DNA from: Escherichia coli
GTDB lineage: Bacteria; Pseudomonadota; Gammaproteobacteria; Enterobacterales; Enterobacteriaceae
NCBI RefSeq assembly: GCF_017348835.2
Contig: NZ_CP071375.1
Length of the DNA stretch: 64,000 nt
Direction: 5' to 3' (one strand)
Positions within the stretch are counted from its first letter, which is position 1, and each line of letters opens with the position of its first letter. A program made the position numbers and the translations under genes. Of the stretch, positions 1-52,824 are shown in pieces. The notes beneath the pieces were generated by a model. The model worked only from the letters and a program-made list of their open reading frames with translations. It did not search any database and was not told the DNA's origin.

Positions 1-86
1 CCGACAATCGCTGCGGTAATAATTCCCGCCAGGATCGGTGCCGCCAGGTCGTGCCAGAAAGTCATGGCAAACTGCGCGAGCGTCAT
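1..86 (-). CDS. ldrC: Ldr-family type I toxin peptide, 5' part only (runs off the window start)
   Basis: Minus-strand translation from the ATG at 86 gives MTLAQFAMTFWHDLAAPILAGIITAAIV, the conserved N-terminus of the ~35-aa Ldr toxins; position next to chaA matches ldrC. Confidence 0.7.
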   Translation of the reverse strand, partial: MTLAQFAMTFWHDLAAPILAGIITAAIV

Positions 87-98
87 ATAGCCGCCTTG

Positions 99-127
99 TT
101 GTAATGACAACATTTTGCGGCTATTCT
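99..127 (+). promoter_or_regulatory. Putative sigma70 promoter for the Rdl antisense RNA (-35 TTGTAA 99-104, 17-bp spacer, -10 TATTCT 122-127)
   Basis: Hexamers and spacing read directly; lies antisense to the ldr 5' region. Confidence 0.3.
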
Positions 128-133
128 TGAAGT

Positions 134-190
134 GTCTGGTTTCAAGATTAGCCCCCGTTCTGTTGTCAGGTTTTACCTCTCAACGTGCGG
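134..190 (+). ncRNA. rdlC: Rdl-like antisense RNA (antitoxin of Ldr), interrupted in its terminator hairpin by IS4
   Basis: Sequence GTCTGGTTTCAAGATTAGCCCCCGTTCTGTTGTCAGGTTTTACCTCTCAACGTGCGG resembles Rdl RNAs as recalled; the 3' hairpin arm and T-tract (GGGTTTTCTCTTT) now lie beyond the IS4 at 1629-1641. Confidence 0.35.
179..190. repeat. 12-bp target-site duplication CTCAACGTGCGG, left copy, IS4 #1
   Basis: Identical 12-mer directly flanks both IS4 ends (179-190 and 1617-1628). Confidence 0.9.
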
Positions 191-1616
191 TAATGCCAGT
201 CAGTTAAGCAACTGACTGGCTCTTTTTCGGGGCTGTGGGGTATTTCCAGGGCCTCTCCTTTACCACTCTCGGGAAGGCCCTTTCCCTTCTTGTCGGTAAT
301 TTCACAAGTTGTCCCATACTTGCAAGATCGCGCATCAGCTCCGGTATACGTCCCGGTGAAGCGCCCTGCAATGTCATCAGCATTCTCATCACCATTCCGC
401 ATGATTCTGAGAAGCTCAGTTGATTTGGCCAGTAACCTTTCAGATGTTCCGCCATTTTAATCATCTGATATCTCACCAGATTATAAGCCAGTAAGACACC
501 CCACAGCTCTTGCTCCACAAGCTCAGGCTTTTTACTTCTCAGCGTCAGCCTGCTCAGTTGCATCGTCTGTTTTATCTCCCTGTATCCCAGTTCGATTTCC
601 CAGCGATGACTGTACAGATCCGCCATTTCTCCTCCGGGGAAGCGCATGGCGTCCGTCATCGACGTCAGCAGATGGCAGACTTTTCCTTTGCGCGTCACGG
701 TCAGCAGGCGGGCTGTCACCTCATTTCCCAGTCCCGGCCACTTTTTTCGTGCCTGCGGGCTGGTTTTCAGCTTCACCAGATGATCGCCTTTACCCAGTTT
801 TCTGATCTCTTCATATTGCGCTCCCTTTCTGAGAGGGATCATCCAGTGGCGGTGTTCTCCCGCCAGGCTCCAGGCATTTAACAATCCCAGTGAGTAATAA
901 CCTTTATCCATTAACGTCAGAGTGTTATCGCCGGTTTGTTCTATAAGTTGCTCAGCAAGCTCATTTTCGCTGTTCTTCATCGTGCCGAAGGCTGCAGCCG
1001 TCAGCAGATGGCTGGTCAGTTCCATCTGGCAGACCATTTTGACCTGCGGGTAGAGCGCCGGGGTCCCGGCATGTGTCTGGCGAGGGAAGGCTGCATCGTT
1101 CTCTGGTGTATCCGGTGTGCGCCAGAACACACCATCGATGGCCAGCAGGGTCAGGCCGCACCAGTGCGGATGCGGCGTGGCGTTATGCCAGAGCTGCGCT
1201 GTTTTCGTGAACACGCGGCGGACAGCCTCACTTCCCAGGCGCTGGCGGGCCTGAATAACAGCACTGGGGGCAACGAAGGTGCGATTGCCCGGCAGCATGA
1301 TGTCCAGGCGATTCACAATCTGGTGAAGAGGTTCTTTACGCTCAAGCGCCATGCCAACAATACACCAGACCATCATTTCGAGGGGAAGACGGCGCTTGCG
1401 TAGCGTTACAGTACCTGATTCGGCAAGGCAACGAGAGATGAGTTCGGGGTCGAGGTAATCTCCCAGAGAAGTCAGTGGGTTACGCAGAGAATCGTAACGG
1501 GATACCAGATCAAGAGCCTGTCCAATGTGCATAAAAAAATCCGGAAACGAGTGAGCGTTTCCGGATTCTTACACAGCCACTGGATCGGTCAACTGATCCT
1601 TAACTGATCGGCATTA
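191..1616 (-). mobile_element. IS4: IS4 insertion sequence, 1426 bp, imperfect 18-bp terminal inverted repeats (TAATGCCAGTCAGTTAAG / TAATGCCGATCAGTTAAG, 16 of 18 match)
   Basis: Terminal inverted repeats read at both ends, single 442-aa transposase ORF, 12-bp flanking direct repeat; length matches IS4. Confidence 0.92.
204..1532 (-). CDS. insG: IS4 transposase (442 aa)
   Basis: Full-length ORF filling the element between the inverted repeats; protein recognised as IS4 transposase. Confidence 0.9.
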
Positions 1617-1628
1617 CTCAACGTGCGG
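1617..1628. repeat. 12-bp target-site duplication CTCAACGTGCGG, right copy, IS4 #1
   Basis: Exact match to 179-190. Confidence 0.9.
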
Positions 1629-1928
1629 GGGTTTTCTCTTTCCAGCAACCAATGCCACCAGGGATAAAGCCCCCGCAACATTGCGCCTCACCGGATAACG
1701 CCGGCTTGGTGTGGATACTACGTCTCAATTCATCTTCACTTCATCCCTGAAGTGTTTGCAATGAAGAGTACATTCCGGCTTTTCAACAGCTGTTGCAGTG
1801 GTTTCGTGCAGGTTGTGGTACAGGCTCGCAATTCTGATTAACGACCTGTCCAGGTAGTATGAAGAAATACAATAAGCAGGAATTTATATTATCTCCCCCG
1901 ATTTCCGTCATCGGAGGAGATATAACTG

Positions 1929-17767: not shown

Positions 17768-17945
17768 TGGTGGTGGGGGAAGGATTACTCAGCGCTGCGC
17801 GCTTCGCCCTTCGGGTCGTTGCCTGCGGCAACGCTCTCTCGCTGGCGCTCGAGTCGAACCTTGGTCGAAGCTTCTCGTCCTTCCCCGCTTGGGCAGAATA
17901 TTAATTTACGGATTCGCTTGAGAGTTCAGGTACTTTTGAAAGTGA
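17768..17945 (-). repeat. tpr: tyrT-distal repeat unit (about 178 bp) carrying a copy of the tRNA-Tyr 3' end; the region is known to encode the small protamine-like Tpr (ORF not delimited here)
   Basis: GATGGTGGTGGGGGAAGGATT recurs at 17768, 17945 and 18064. Confidence 0.5.
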
Positions 17946-18030
<85 letters not shown>

Positions 18031-18064
18031 AGGGGTAATTCAAATTTCGAGGTAATGCTTGAGA

Positions 18065-18149
<85 letters not shown>

Positions 18150-24670: not shown

Positions 24671-24929
24671 TAAGAATTTCTTTACTGACAGGGTGAGCAG
24701 GGCACTTTTATCCTGTCAGTTCGTTTTACGCACTTCTTCCGGGCTATACACCCTTCTCGGCAGTTTTTTAACGCCGCTATACGCCTCACAGGGCTCTTAA
24801 GCACCGACGTTGACTTGTGACCTGTAAAGTACAGTATCCTGTGTTTAGGCGTTATACATCGTCGCAAATATGATGAAGGCTAATGCTGTCGGTTTATGGA
24901 AAAGTTGCTTTGGGTAAACAAAAAAACGG

Positions 24930-24941
24930 CCCCAGAAGGGG
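24930..24941. repeat. 12-bp target-site duplication CCCCAGAAGGGG, left copy, IS4 #2
   Basis: Identical 12-mer at 26368-26379. Confidence 0.9.
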
Positions 24942-26367
24942 TAATGCCAGTCAGTTAAGCAACTGACTGGCTCTTTTTCGGGGCTGTGGGGTATTTCCAG
25001 GGCCTCTCCTTTACCACTCTCGGGAAGGCCCTTTCCCTTCTTGTCGGTAATTTCACAAGTTGTCCCATACTTGCAAGATCGCGCATCAGCTCCGGTATAC
25101 GTCCCGGTGAAGCGCCCTGCAATGTCATCAGCATTCTCATCACCATTCCGCATGATTCTGAGAAGCTCAGTTGATTTGGCCAGTAACCTTTCAGATGTTC
25201 CGCCATTTTAATCATCTGATATCTCACCAGATTATAAGCCAGTAAGACACCCCACAGCTCTTGCTCCACAAGCTCAGGCTTTTTACTTCTCAGCGTCAGC
25301 CTGCTCAGTTGCATCGTCTGTTTTATCTCCCTGTATCCCAGTTCGATTTCCCAGCGATGACTGTACAGATCCGCCATTTCTCCTCCGGGGAAGCGCATGG
25401 CGTCCGTCATCGACGTCAGCAGATGGCAGACTTTTCCTTTGCGCGTCACGGTCAGCAGGCGGGCTGTCACCTCATTTCCCAGTCCCGGCCACTTTTTTCG
25501 TGCCTGCGGGCTGGTTTTCAGCTTCACCAGATGATCGCCTTTACCCAGTTTTCTGATCTCTTCATATTGCGCTCCCTTTCTGAGAGGGATCATCCAGTGG
25601 CGGTGTTCTCCCGCCAGGCTCCAGGCATTTAACAATCCCAGTGAGTAATAACCTTTATCCATTAACGTCAGAGTGTTATCGCCGGTTTGTTCTATAAGTT
25701 GCTCAGCAAGCTCATTTTCGCTGTTCTTCATCGTGCCGAAGGCTGCAGCCGTCAGCAGATGGCTGGTCAGTTCCATCTGGCAGACCATTTTGACCTGCGG
25801 GTAGAGCGCCGGGGTCCCGGCATGTGTCTGGCGAGGGAAGGCTGCATCGTTCTCTGGTGTATCCGGTGTGCGCCAGAACACACCATCGATGGCCAGCAGG
25901 GTCAGGCCGCACCAGTGCGGATGCGGCGTGGCGTTATGCCAGAGCTGCGCTGTTTTCGTGAACACGCGGCGGACAGCCTCACTTCCCAGGCGCTGGCGGG
26001 CCTGAATAACAGCACTGGGGGCAACGAAGGTGCGATTGCCCGGCAGCATGATGTCCAGGCGATTCACAATCTGGTGAAGAGGTTCTTTACGCTCAAGCGC
26101 CATGCCAACAATACACCAGACCATCATTTCGAGGGGAAGACGGCGCTTGCGTAGCGTTACAGTACCTGATTCGGCAAGGCAACGAGAGATGAGTTCGGGG
26201 TCGAGGTAATCTCCCAGAGAAGTCAGTGGGTTACGCAGAGAATCGTAACGGGATACCAGATCAAGAGCCTGTCCAATGTGCATAAAAAAATCCGGAAACG
26301 AGTGAGCGTTTCCGGATTCTTACACAGCCACTGGATCGGTCAACTGATCCTTAACTGATCGGCATTA
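24942..26367 (-). mobile_element. IS4: IS4 insertion sequence, 1426 bp, second copy, same orientation as the first
   Basis: Same terminal inverted repeats and identical encoded proteins as the copy at 191-1616; own 12-bp target-site duplication. Confidence 0.92.
24955..26283 (-). CDS. insG: IS4 transposase (442 aa)
   Basis: Protein identical to the 204-1532 ORF. Confidence 0.9.
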
Positions 26368-26379
26368 CCCCAGAAGGGG
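26368..26379. repeat. 12-bp target-site duplication CCCCAGAAGGGG, right copy, IS4 #2
   Basis: Exact match to 24930-24941. Confidence 0.9.
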
Positions 26380-26408
26380 CCGTTTATGTTGCCAGACAGC
26401 GCTACTGA

Positions 26409-52707: not shown

Positions 52708-52738
52708 CAAAAAAAAGCCCGCTCATTAGGCGGGCTGG
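52708..52738 (-). terminator. trp attenuator (3:4 terminator hairpin AGCCCGCCTAATGAGCGGGCT + T8)
   Basis: Read directly on the minus strand between trpL and trpE. Confidence 0.9.
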
Positions 52739-52779
52739 GTATCTGATTGCTTTACGCATGGTGAATACACTGCCCGTTT

Positions 52780-52824
52780 CAGGAAGTGCGCCACCAAGCT
52801 TTCAGTACGAAAATTGCTTTCATT
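52780..52824 (-). CDS. trpL: trp leader peptide [14 protein letters not shown] with tandem Trp codons
   Basis: Exact 14-codon ORF read on the minus strand. Confidence 0.95.

What the first reader, a model, noticed from the sequence alone, without database searches (positions are those of the whole stretch)
1..1641. IS4 inserted in the ldrC/rdlC type I toxin-antitoxin locus, splitting the putative RdlC terminator and the ldrC leader
The ldr toxin ORF starts at 86 on the minus strand. On the plus strand a promoter-like pair (TTGTAA, 17 bp, TATTCT) is followed by an Rdl-like RNA whose terminator hairpin (GCCCCCG ... CGGGGG + TTTTCTCTTT) is cut by IS4 between 190 and 191. The 3' arm and T-tract now sit 1.4 kb away at 1629-1641. 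Because Rdl is antisense to the ldr 5' leader, the same insertion should also separate the ldrC promoter from its ORF. Either the toxin is silenced or it is driven by read-out from IS4.
Basis: partly seen in the sequence, partly recalled or inferred. Interest (0 to 1): 0.6.

Follow-up and report, generated by a model that had tools for sequence, protein, structure and literature searches.

The report
IS4 inserted in rdlC/ldrC toxin-antitoxin locus
A 1.4-kb IS4 element has inserted into the terminator of the RdlC antitoxin RNA, cutting the LdrC toxin gene off from its promoter; the sequence there fits the terminator-like sites IS4 prefers, so this is an ordinary natural insertion.

Summary
IS4 lies at 191-1616 (1426 bp, intact 442-aa transposase on the minus strand) between 12-bp target duplications, CTCAACGTGCGG at 179-190 and 1617-1628. 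With IS4 and one duplicate removed, the sequence matches K-12 ldrC-rdlC-chaA at 98.4% over 495 bp. Rfam rdlD matches 134-194 at 55.1 bits, against 84-92 bits for intact copies, because the 3' terminator arm is missing.

IS4 sits 104 nt upstream of the ldr ATG, inside the region antisense to Rdl. The ldrC promoter (inferred at about 1715-1744, minus strand) and the first ~90 nt of the leader are therefore 1.4 kb from the ORF.

Three points are new.
- The site is a good IS4 target. A matrix built from 49 independent metagenomic IS4 flanks ranks it 14th among distinct sites, out of 122,190 window positions. The window's second IS4, in the tdk/adhE terminator, ranks 3rd and 7th.
- Different IS4 alleles hit the same nucleotide in the same orientation at least twice. 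Only 3 of 5,426 complete genomes carry the insertion.
- IS4 has terminator-like hairpins at both ends, which predicts a ~94-nt RdlC'-IS4 chimeric RNA and a silenced ldrC.

The expression consequences are inferred, not measured. Interest is low to moderate.

The parts
1..86 (-). 5' part of the Ldr toxin ORF (chaA-proximal, ldrC-position copy). It holds 28 codons and runs off the window start.
   Evidence: Translation MTLAQFAMTFWHDLAAPILAGIITAAIV equals K-12 LdrB 1-28. The full 35-aa ORF is intact in PE164, whose flanks are 100% identical to the window.
87..190 (-). The 104 nt of the ldr 5' UTR that stay attached to the ORF, now cut off from the promoter.
   Evidence: Alignment to K-12 LDR copies. 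No promoter-like site of 8/12 or better reads toward ldr from the IS4 left end, apart from a weak site at 431->404 inside the transposase gene.
99..127 (+). Rdl promoter-like hexamers, TTGTAA (99-104), 17-nt spacer, TATTCT (122-127).
   Evidence: Read from the sequence. It scores 8/12 in my own scan and lies 7 nt upstream of the annotated K-12 rdlC 5' end, which maps to G134.
134..190 (+). Truncated RdlC antitoxin RNA gene, 57 of about 66-68 nt.
   Evidence: Rfam RF01813 scores 55.1 bits with the 3' stem arm missing. Intact copies score 83.6-91.8 bits.
179..190 (.). Left copy of the 12-bp target-site duplication, CTCAACGTGCGG.
   Evidence: the repeat finder family D6.
191..1616 (-). IS4, 1426 bp. 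The strand given is that of the transposase gene.
   Evidence: 18-bp terminal inverted repeats and exact length. It differs from K-12 IS4 at 15 of 1426 nt. The same locus is annotated 'IS4-like element IS4 family transposase' in three RefSeq genomes.
204..1532 (-). Intact IS4 transposase ORF, 442 aa.
   Evidence: the ORF listing. Four amino-acid differences from K-12 InsG.
195..227 (+). IS4 left-end hairpin (11 perfect pairs, loop AAGC) followed by TCTTTTT. It is the predicted substitute terminator for RdlC'.
   Evidence: Terminator scan. Fold energy -18.7 kcal/mol, z = -5.8. The 134-227 chimera folds as the Rdl inner hairpin plus this hairpin. No variable position occurs before IS4 nt 141 in 11 copies.
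1528..1570 (-). IS4 right-end hairpin followed by U7, immediately before the transposase ATG at 1532. It is the predicted block to transcripts reading in from the ldrC promoter.
   Evidence: Inverted repeat I3. Fold energy -22.2 kcal/mol, z = -5.8.
1565..1592 (-). Promoter-like site for the IS4 transposase, TTGACC-16-AAGAAT with TG. Its -10 lies in the 5' arm of the hairpin.
   Evidence: scan_promoters_terminators, 9/12.
1617..1628 (.). Right copy of the target-site duplication.
1626..1641 (+). Orphaned 3' arm and T-tract of the RdlC terminator, CGGGGGTTTTCTCTTT.
   Evidence: Alignment with K-12 rdlA/B/C and the Rfam consensus structure.
1617..1708 (-). Promoter-proximal ~90 nt of the ldrC leader, now reading into the IS4 right end. 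The transcription start is inferred.
   Evidence: LDR-D versus LDR-A/B/C alignment. Near-invariant sequence begins just downstream of the -10-like hexamer.
1589..1681 (-). Leader ORF (ldrX-like, 25 codons when intact, ATG at 1681). It is now fused into the IS4 inverted repeat and reads MLRGLYPWWHWLLERENPRTL+SNADQLRIS.
   Evidence: the ORF listing. The ORF region is nearly invariant between LDR-D and LDR-A/B/C. The ldrX hypothesis is quoted in PMC4147584.
1715..1744 (-). Inferred ldrC promoter, ATGAAG-18-TAGTAT. It scores 7/12, with a weak -35.
   Evidence: The conserved TAGTAT/TAGAAT marks the point where LDR-D and LDR-A/B/C similarity starts; own scan. Not experimentally anchored here.
24942..26367 (-). 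Second IS4 copy, 0/1426 differences from the rdlC copy, in the tdk/adhE terminator hairpin. It is the probable donor.
   Evidence: The allele is identical at this site in strain F2_81, which lacks the rdlC insertion.

Best explanation
**What it is.** This is a natural, fairly recent IS4 transposition into the chaA-proximal LDR repeat of an E. coli chromosome.

**Why there.** IS4 recognises terminator-like targets: a short G+C-rich palindrome apex flanked by a T-tract. The 3' half of the RdlC terminator, CTCAACGTGCGG|GGGTTTTCT, fits that pattern. In this lineage the donor was most probably the resident IS4 copy in the tdk/adhE terminator 23 kb away.

**Shown consequence.** The insertion physically splits both overlapping genes. 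rdlC loses the 3' arm and U-tract of its terminator. The ldrC ORF keeps only the proximal 104 nt of its roughly 185-nt leader, and its promoter now lies 1.4 kb away.

**Inferred consequences.**
1. Transcripts from the ldrC promoter enter IS4 in the sense direction of the transposase. They meet a strong hairpin plus U7 just before the transposase start codon, so they end there or stay untranslated.
2. The ldrC ORF has no promoter of its own. It can be reached only by weak read-through from the transposase gene, because the IS4 left-end hairpin has no U-tract on that strand.
3. Rdl transcription from its intact promoter runs 57 nt and then stops at the IS4 left-end hairpin plus UCUUUUU. This gives a ~94-nt RdlC'-IS4 chimera that still covers the leader segment left next to ldrC.
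4. An intact neighbouring Rdl, identical at nt 8-57, can also pair with that segment.

**Net effect.** One of several redundant Ldr toxin copies is silenced with its antisense control essentially retained, so the change is tolerated and probably nearly neutral.
For: **Structure**
- IS4 boundaries, 12-bp duplication and intact transposase.
- The empty site equals K-12 ldrC/rdlC/chaA at 98.4% over 495 bp.
- Rfam rdlD scores 55.1 bits truncated against 83.6-91.8 intact.
- Rdl overlaps the ldr 5' UTR (PMC4147584; PMC2887945). The promoter is inferred upstream of the insertion.

**Target preference**
- 49 distinct IS4 right flanks from metagenome contigs give the consensus C-n-S-C-n4-GGGG-n-G-n-TTTTTT.
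- A T-run of at least 4 occurs in 33/49 flanks against 7.2% background, p = 2e-26.
- In the IS-free reconstruction of the window the rdlC site scores 10.82. That is the 99.983 percentile and the 14th distinct site among 122,190 positions.
- The other occupied site ranks 3rd and 7th.
- Eight E. coli sites read in full show the duplication sitting on hairpin apices of terminators.

**Recency and recurrence**
- The window's rdlC copy, its tdk copy and the F2_81 tdk copy are identical, 0/1426 differences.
- The SW07164 rdlC copy differs at 14 nt from the window's. It is 100% identical to IS4 copies at many other sites and plasmids in at least 40 genomes.
- Junction and orientation are identical in all carriers.

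**Expression inference**
- Left-end hairpin -18.7 kcal/mol plus TCTTTTT.
- Chimera fold.
- Right-end hairpin -22.2 kcal/mol plus U7 before the ATG.
- No outward promoter-like site near the IS4 left end.
- Neighbouring intact rdl identical at nt 8-57.
- Ldr ORFs intact in all three complete-genome carriers.
Against: - No expression data exist here. Terminator function of both IS4 hairpins, the stability and activity of the chimeric RNA, and the strength of transposase read-out are predictions only.
- The ldr promoter and start site are inferred from conservation. The -35 is poor (7/12), and the primary paper (Kawano 2002) could not be read.
- Predicted accessibility of the ldr SD/AUG is the same in full-length, truncated and read-out transcripts. 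Folding therefore gives no extra argument that read-out transcripts are inert.
- The matrix uses right flanks only, and several unoccupied sites in the window score higher. It explains why the site is permissive, not why it was chosen.
- No IS4 was found in the identical rdlA or rdlB sites of 5,426 genomes, which a pure hot-spot model does not predict.
Confidence: 0.72

Rival explanations
1. Read-out activation. The ldrC ORF is now co-transcribed with the IS4 transposase. The shortened leader escapes normal control, so toxin synthesis becomes coupled to transposase expression. That would be a harmful or addictive toxin-IS linkage rather than silencing.
For: - ldrC and the transposase gene are on the same strand.
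- The IS4 left-end hairpin has no U-tract on the minus strand, and no terminator-like site lies between the transposase stop (204) and the ldr ATG (86).
- Many type I toxin mRNAs are activated by 5' truncation (general knowledge of tisB, dinQ and zorO).
Against: - The transposase promoter is the only upstream promoter-like site, and IS transposase promoters are generally weak.
- The retained 104-nt leader still contains the whole Rdl-complementary segment. Both the predicted chimeric Rdl' and an intact neighbouring Rdl can pair with it.
- Predicted SD/AUG sequestration by the 3' UTR is unchanged.
- Ldr ORFs are intact in three carrier genomes from different lineages, which argues against strong toxicity.
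Confidence: 0.13
2. Single ancient insertion. IS4 entered rdlC once, deep in E. coli history, and diverged together with its flanks. Nearly all lineages then lost it through recombination between LDR repeats. On this reading the site is not a recurrent target.
For: - IS4 divergence between the window and SW07164 (14/1426, 0.98%) is close to flank divergence (45/4315, 1.04%).
- Tandem LDR repeats vary from 1 to 3 copies, so loss by recombination is easy.
- The insertion is always in the chaA-proximal copy and always in the same orientation.
Against: - The window's rdlC copy is identical (0/1426) to the tdk/adhE copy of the same lineage, including strain F2_81, which lacks the rdlC insertion.
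- The SW07164 copy is 100% identical to IS4 copies at many unrelated chromosomal and plasmid sites in at least 40 genomes. Both therefore look like recent copies of circulating alleles.
- SW07164 and RM8082 differ at 1 nt inside IS4 but at 4 positions within 130 bp of the junctions.
- Only 3 of 5,426 genomes carry the insertion.
- The site matches the independently derived IS4 target matrix.
Confidence: 0.12
3. Assembly artefact. A repeated IS4 was mis-placed into a repeated LDR unit.
For: Both IS4 and LDR are multi-copy repeats, and the window holds two identical IS4 copies.
Against: - A perfect 12-bp target duplication of the length typical for IS4.
- Unique chaA-side flank directly to the right.
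- Identical junctions in three independently assembled complete genomes.
Confidence: 0.01

Closest known systems
IS4 of E. coli K-12 (insG, between yjgZ and nanX) and the IS4 subgroup of the IS4 family
   Same: - 1426 bp, the same 18-bp ends, a 442-aa DDE transposase and a 12-bp duplication.
- 98.9% identity.
- Marked target specificity in the arms flanking the duplication is already reported for the IS4 subgroup (PMC2266710).
- From memory, not verified here: early work described very few IS4 sites (galT, the pheST attenuator) and an AAA-N20-TTT-type consensus.
   Different: - This copy is a different allele, 15 nt and 4 amino acids from K-12.
- It lies in a site not described in any paper I could search.
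- The target here has a good T-arm but, in most carriers, no A-arm.
ldr/rdl (LDR) type I toxin-antitoxin repeats of E. coli K-12 (Kawano et al. 2002)
   Same: - Same position between kdsA and chaA.
- Same ORF, leader, Rdl promoter and Rdl sequence, 98.4% identity once IS4 is removed.
   Different: - Rdl lacks its own terminator.
- ldr lacks its promoter and the distal leader, including the start of the conserved leader ORF.
- Copy number differs between strains, from 1 to 3.
Chromosomal hok/sok loci of E. coli K-12 inactivated by IS elements (Pedersen and Gerdes 1999; from memory, cited only in the reference list seen)
   Same: A chromosomal type I toxin-antitoxin copy disrupted by an insertion sequence close to the toxin reading frame, leaving an intact but presumably silent toxin ORF.
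   Different: - A different toxin family and different IS elements (IS150/IS186 there, as I recall).
- Here the IS lies inside the antisense overlap, so both partners are cut at once.
- Here the IS is predicted to supply a new terminator to the antitoxin.
IS elements that target palindromic or terminator-like sequences (IS1397, IS621 and ISRm22 into REP; terminator-like sequences next to ISs)
   Same: Insertion into extragenic palindromes and an association of IS ends with terminator-like structures (PMC1525189; bioRxiv 10.1101/2025.07.22.666184).
   Different: Those reports concern REP elements or family-level statistics. The IS4-specific matrix and the two occupied sites in this window are my own analysis.

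Membership tests
IS4 (IS4 family, IS4 subgroup) | Length of about 1.4 kb with about 18-bp terminal inverted repeats. | tested here: met
   1426 bp, with ends TAATGCCAGTCAGTTAAG and CTTAACTGATCGGCATTA.
IS4 (IS4 family, IS4 subgroup) | A single uninterrupted transposase ORF, near-identical to the reference IS4. | tested here: met
   442-aa ORF at 204-1532 (-), with 4 amino-acid and 15 nt differences from K-12 IS4. RefSeq annotates it as an IS4 family transposase at the same locus. The DDE/YREK motifs were not examined separately.
IS4 (IS4 family, IS4 subgroup) | Target duplication of about one helical turn (11-13 bp). | tested here: met
   12 bp here. Nine other sites show 12 or 13 bp.
IS4 (IS4 family, IS4 subgroup) | Insertion at sites that fit the element's target preference. 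| tested here: met
   Matrix score 10.82, the 99.983 percentile of window positions. The leave-one-out median of real sites is 7.9.
Rdl antitoxin RNA (Rfam RF01813 rdlD) | Covariance-model score at or above the gathering threshold. | tested here: met
   55.1 bits against a threshold of 50.
Rdl antitoxin RNA (Rfam RF01813 rdlD) | Complete long stem-loop with its 3' arm and U-tract, which is the intrinsic terminator. | tested here: not met
   The five outer pairs and the U-tract are deleted in the alignment. The missing half is at 1626-1641. The locus is therefore a disrupted member, not an intact one.
Rdl antitoxin RNA (Rfam RF01813 rdlD) | Encoded antisense to the 5' UTR of an ldr gene, with its own promoter. 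| tested here: met
   It starts 47 nt upstream of the ldr ATG on the opposite strand, and the promoter hexamers at 99-127 are retained.
Rdl antitoxin RNA (Rfam RF01813 rdlD) | Produces a ~60-68-nt RNA that represses Ldr synthesis. | not testable with these tools
   Only a prediction is available: a ~94-nt chimera ending at the IS4 hairpin.
Ldr toxin (Ldr/Fst superfamily) | 35-aa hydrophobic peptide with a conserved W and a charged C-terminus. | tested here: inconclusive
   Only 28 codons lie in the window, and they are identical to K-12 LdrB. The full 35-aa ORF is present in PE164, whose flanks are 100% identical to the window.
Ldr toxin (Ldr/Fst superfamily) | Transcribed from its own promoter with a long 5' UTR. 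| tested here: not met
   The leader is interrupted 104 nt upstream of the ATG, and the inferred promoter is 1.4 kb away.
Intrinsic (Rho-independent) terminator, for the IS4 left-end element at 195-227 | G+C-containing stem, short loop and an immediately following U-rich tract. | tested here: met
   11-bp perfect stem with 6 G-C pairs, 4-nt loop, then TCTTTTT; -18.7 kcal/mol.
Intrinsic (Rho-independent) terminator, for the IS4 left-end element at 195-227 | Actually stops RNA polymerase. | not testable with these tools
   Needs term-seq, 3' RACE or in vitro transcription.

The most novel reading that the evidence does not exclude
IS4 may be a terminator-homing element that carries its own insulation. 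On this reading it inserts at the apex of intrinsic-terminator hairpins. It replaces the terminator it destroys with a strong one at its left end, and it blocks read-in to its transposase with a hairpin plus U7 at its right end. At rdlC this 'terminator swap' would produce a stable, functional chimeric antitoxin (RdlC'-IS4). It would also place the transposase end directly downstream of the ldrC promoter and leave the toxin ORF as the 3' extension of the transposase transcript. The same nucleotide would then be hit repeatedly in nature because the outcome is tolerated.
Probability: 0.2. Interest if true: 0.5.

Novelty: new member of a known kind. Interest (0 to 1): 0.3.

Why it matters
In practice it is an annotation point. 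In carrier strains rdlC is a disrupted gene and ldrC is an orphan ORF, yet RefSeq still annotates the toxin as a normal CDS and lists neither the Rdl remnant nor the insertion as such.

Biologically it is a clean natural experiment. PE164 and the source strain can be compared with the near-identical strain F2_81. That comparison could show whether the distal leader and leader ORF are needed for Ldr expression, and whether Rdl tolerates a foreign terminator. Reviews say the Ldr/Rdl mechanism is still unresolved.

The side result also helps predict where IS4 will land and why such insertions are mild. IS4 chooses terminator-like apices, and it carries terminator-like hairpins at both ends.

Tried and rejected
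**Literature that could not be reached or gave nothing**
- The primary ldr/rdl papers and a TSS data set are not held: Kawano 2002 and 2012, Fozo 2008 and Thomason 2015. The supplement of PMC3562002 is not held either. The ldr start site therefore rests on conservation, not on a published coordinate.
- A search for ldrC/rdlC returned unrelated acronyms.
- A five-term IS4/terminator search returned nothing.
- No paper was found that links IS4 with ldr or rdl.

**Hypotheses tested and dropped**
- I tested whether the SW07164 and RM8082 rdlC copies derive from their own tdk/adhE copy. They do not: that site holds a different ~990-bp IS4-like remnant that shares only 34 nt with IS4.
- I checked whether an IS4 flagged next to bcsG lies in LDR-D. 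It lies inside the bcsG coding sequence.
- I compared predicted SD/AUG accessibility in full-length, truncated and read-out ldr transcripts. There was no difference, so this does not discriminate.
- I looked for covariation supporting the predicted leader/3'-UTR pairing between LDR-D and LDR-A/B/C by eye. One change is one-sided and one disrupts a pair, so the result is inconclusive.
- I considered whether the shared orientation shows an orientation rule. With 2-3 events and a roughly symmetrical target (A-arm in 7 of 11 fully read sites, T-arm in 9 of 11), it is not statistically meaningful.
Full report
**1. Observation**

- **ldr and Rdl.** The window opens inside an ldr toxin gene on the minus strand. 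Its ATG is at 86, and the visible 28 codons are identical to K-12 LdrB. On the plus strand TTGTAA (99-104), a 17-nt spacer and TATTCT (122-127) precede G134. Rfam's rdlD model (RF01813) matches from there to 194 at 55.1 bits against a gathering score of 50. The alignment shows that the five outer base pairs of the 3' arm and the U-tract are absent. Intact rdl copies in K-12, F2_81 and PE164 score 83.6-91.8 bits.
- **IS4.** From 191 to 1616 lies a 1426-bp element with IS4's 18-bp terminal repeats. It carries an uninterrupted 442-aa transposase ORF on the minus strand (204-1532). It is flanked by a perfect 12-bp duplication, CTCAACGTGCGG at 179-190 and 1617-1628. It differs from K-12 IS4 at 15 nt and 4 amino acids.
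- **Orphan terminator half.** The missing Rdl terminator half, CGGGGGTTTTCTCTTT, is at 1626-1641.
- **Empty-site test.** Joining 1-190 to 1629-1935 gives a sequence that aligns to K-12 ldrC-rdlC-chaA at 98.4% over 495 bp. Its distal unique part matches only the chaA-proximal repeat.

**2. Surroundings and relatives**

- **Gene order.** To the right lie chaA, chaB and chaC, as in K-12.
- **Carriers.** Among 5,426 complete E. coli genomes only three carry IS4 at this place: PE164, SW07164 and RM8082. All have the same junction nucleotides and the same orientation.
- **Closest genome.** The window is essentially the PE164 haplotype. Its flanks are 100% identical over 190 nt on the left and 4.3 kb on the right, and IS4 differs at 2 nt.
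- **LDR copy number.** It varies between strains: one in F2_81, two in PE164 and RM8082, three in SW07164 and K-12.
- **Toxin ORF.** The Ldr ORF next to IS4 is intact in all three complete genomes.
- **Neighbouring Rdl.** PE164 retains an intact rdl in the neighbouring repeat. It is identical to the truncated one at nt 8-57.

**3. Where the ldr promoter is**

I could not read the primary papers. Reviews state that Rdl overlaps the long 5' UTR of ldr mRNA and not the RBS or start codon. They also state that the repression mechanism is unresolved, with a leader ORF (ldrX) proposed (PMC4147584; PMC8309996; PMC2887945). IS4 lies inside the Rdl-complementary segment, 104 nt upstream of the ATG, so the ldr start site must lie to the right of IS4.

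An alignment of LDR-D with LDR-A/B/C on the mRNA strand supports this. Near-invariant sequence begins just after a -10-like TAGTAT/TAGAAT, at window 1720->1715 on the minus strand. A start near 1708 gives a leader of about 185 nt. With the 108-nt ORF and a terminator about 85 nt downstream of the stop, the mRNA would be about 380 nt. That agrees with the roughly 370-nt size I recall from Kawano 2002, which is memory and not verified. The -35 is poor (7/12), so the exact promoter remains an inference.

The conserved leader contains a 25-codon ORF with its ATG at 1681 on the minus strand. The insertion truncates it and fuses it to the IS4 inverted repeat.

**4. Why IS4 is here**

- **Second copy in the window.** It lies at 24942-26367 in the same orientation, with 0 differences. 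It sits in the hairpin of the tdk/adhE terminator, AAAAAAACGG[CCCCAGAAGGGG]CCGTTTAT. That insertion is present in 1,129 of 5,426 genomes.
- **Sites read in full.** Eight E. coli IS4 sites show the same picture. The 12-13-bp duplication covers the apex of a palindrome, with an A-rich left arm and a T-rich right arm. Examples are the lysP, fieF and tdk terminators. Five of these were picked because BLAST extended into the left flank, so their left-flank similarity to rdlC is partly by construction.
- **Unbiased sample.** I scanned metagenome contigs for the IS4 right end. This gave 87 contigs and 49 distinct right flanks. The consensus is C-n-S-C-n4-GGGG-n-G-n-TTTTTT. A T-run of at least 4 occurs in 33/49 flanks against 7.2% of background positions, p = 2e-26.
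- **Scoring the window.** I scanned the window with both IS4 copies and one duplicate each removed, 122,190 positions in all. The tdk/adhE site ranks 3rd and 7th. The rdlC site scores 10.82, which is the 99.983 percentile and the 14th distinct site. That is above the leave-one-out median of real sites, 7.9.
- **Other LDR copies.** The rdlA and rdlB sites are identical and score the same. rdlD scores 5.46 in register.

This agrees with the "spectacular" arm specificity reported for the IS4 subgroup (PMC2266710). It also agrees with the reported over-representation of terminator-like sequences next to ISs (bioRxiv 10.1101/2025.07.22.666184).

**5. One event or several**

- The window's rdlC copy is identical to its tdk/adhE copy. 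It is also identical to the tdk/adhE copy of F2_81, a close relative that lacks the rdlC insertion. This points to a recent hop of about 23 kb within this lineage.
- The SW07164 and RM8082 copies are a different allele, 14-15 nt away. That allele is 100% identical to IS4 copies at many unrelated chromosomal and plasmid sites in at least 40 genomes.
- Two independent insertions at the same nucleotide are therefore the most economical reading.
- SW07164 and RM8082 differ at 1 nt inside IS4 but at 4 positions within 130 bp of the junctions. That could mean a third event, or it could reflect gene conversion among LDR repeats.
- A single ancient insertion is not excluded. IS4 and flank divergence are both about 1%, but that reading needs ad hoc homogenisation of IS4 copies.

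**6. Consequences (inferred)**

- **RdlC.** On the plus strand the IS4 left end carries an 11-bp perfect hairpin followed by TCTTTTT (-18.7 kcal/mol). RNA from the intact Rdl promoter should end there. The predicted ~94-nt chimera keeps Rdl's 5' tail and inner hairpin.
- **Read-out toward ldrC.** On the minus strand the same hairpin has no U-tract. No promoter-like site of 8/12 or better reads out of the IS4 left end, apart from a weak site at 431->404 inside the transposase gene. ldrC can therefore be reached only by transposase read-through.
- **Read-in from the ldrC promoter.** At the right end a hairpin (-22.2 kcal/mol) followed by U7 abuts the transposase ATG. The predicted transposase promoter (TTGACC-16-AAGAAT) has its -10 in the 5' arm of that hairpin. 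Native transcripts would therefore lack the hairpin, while transcripts entering from the ldrC promoter would form it. This is the classical arrangement that protects an IS from outside activation, applied here by inference.
- **Translation signals.** Predicted sequestration of the ldr SD/AUG by the 3' UTR is unchanged by the truncation, so it does not discriminate between the models.

Overall the most likely state is a silenced, intact toxin ORF with antisense cover retained.

**7. Comparison and verdict**

The element is a bona fide IS4. The RNA gene is a disrupted member of rdlD, because the terminator feature was tested and not met. The toxin gene is an Ldr copy deprived of its promoter. 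The closest precedent I recall is the chromosomal hok/sok loci of K-12 inactivated by IS elements, which is memory and not verified here.

No paper I could search links IS4 with ldr or rdl. The event is nevertheless a new instance of known kinds of things: a site-selective IS, and an IS-disrupted type I toxin-antitoxin copy. Interest is low to moderate. Its value lies in annotation, in the natural near-isogenic pair for dissecting Ldr/Rdl control, and in the quantified terminator-like target preference of IS4.

Noticed in passing
window 24942-26367, with flanks 24900-24941 and 26368-26400: A second IS4 copy is identical (0/1426) to the rdlC copy and has the same orientation. It sits in the hairpin of the tdk/adhE bidirectional terminator, with duplication CCCCAGAAGGGG. 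This insertion is present in 1,129 of 5,426 complete E. coli genomes. The two direct copies bracket about 23.3 kb (chaA to tdk, including nar genes, galU and hns). Together they form a potential composite element or a substrate for deletion or duplication.
   Followed up: partly
49 metagenome loci among L016-L102 (right flanks), plus L008 and L011-L015: IS4 inserts almost only at terminator-like sites. The right-flank consensus is C-n-S-C-n4-GGGG-n-G-n-TTTTTT, and the duplication covers the hairpin apex. A matrix built from these flanks picks out both occupied sites in the window among the top 14 distinct sites, out of 122,190 positions. IS4 also carries terminator-like hairpins at both of its own ends (195-227 on the plus strand, 1570->1528 on the minus strand).
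   Followed up: partly
L006 4248-5235 (RM8082) and the matching region of L005 (SW07164): In these strains the very same tdk/adhE hairpin holds a different ~990-bp IS4-like remnant. Its ends are CAATGCCGTTCACTTAAG and CTTAACTGATCGGCATTG, its transposase is frameshifted, and it shares only 34 nt with IS4. A related element has used the same target.
   Followed up: partly
window 1681->1617 on the minus strand, continuing at 190->166 in the empty site; alignment A2 columns ~327-430: A 25-codon leader ORF (MLRGLYPWWHWLLERENPRTLRGKT) with an upstream GGTGAGG lies in the ldr 5' UTR. This stretch is nearly invariant between LDR-D and LDR-A/B/C, more conserved than the toxin ORF itself. It probably corresponds to the proposed ldrX.
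   Followed up: partly
L001 2490-2791 (PE164 ldr copy next to IS4; window 87-130 for the 5' partner): The predicted fold pairs the segment just upstream of and across the ldr SD/AUG (AUGUUGUCAUUAC...GGCGGCU) with the 3' UTR (GGCUGCCGUGAUGGCAAUAU). This resembles hok-type fold-back inhibition. A comparison with LDR-D gave no clear compensatory change.
   Followed up: partly
L001, L002, L003, L004, L007 (kdsA-chaA interval): LDR copy number varies from 1 to 3 among strains. The protein allele at the chaA-proximal position also differs: LdrB-like in the window and PE164, and other variants in SW07164 and RM8082. This points to frequent unequal recombination or gene conversion among the repeats.
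   Followed up: no
IS4 copies in the window, L001-L003, L008, L011-L015, L104 and L105: Three IS4 alleles about 1% apart are circulating. The K-12 type is identical at six different sites in six strains. The SW07164 type is identical in at least 40 genomes, including plasmids. The window type is resident at tdk/adhE.
   Followed up: partly
window 166-402 on the minus strand (and 24845-25153 at the second copy): An ORF in a second frame over the 3' end of the transposase gene stays open through the IS4 left end and continues into whatever flank follows. At rdlC it ends with the leader-ORF tail RTLRGKT. It is probably only a mechanical ORF.
   Followed up: no
window 17768-18149 and 52709-52802: Rfam finds RtT RNA with two tRNA genes (the tyrT/tyrV region) and the trp operon leader. 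These are ordinary landmarks, consistent with the K-12-like gene order.
   Followed up: no
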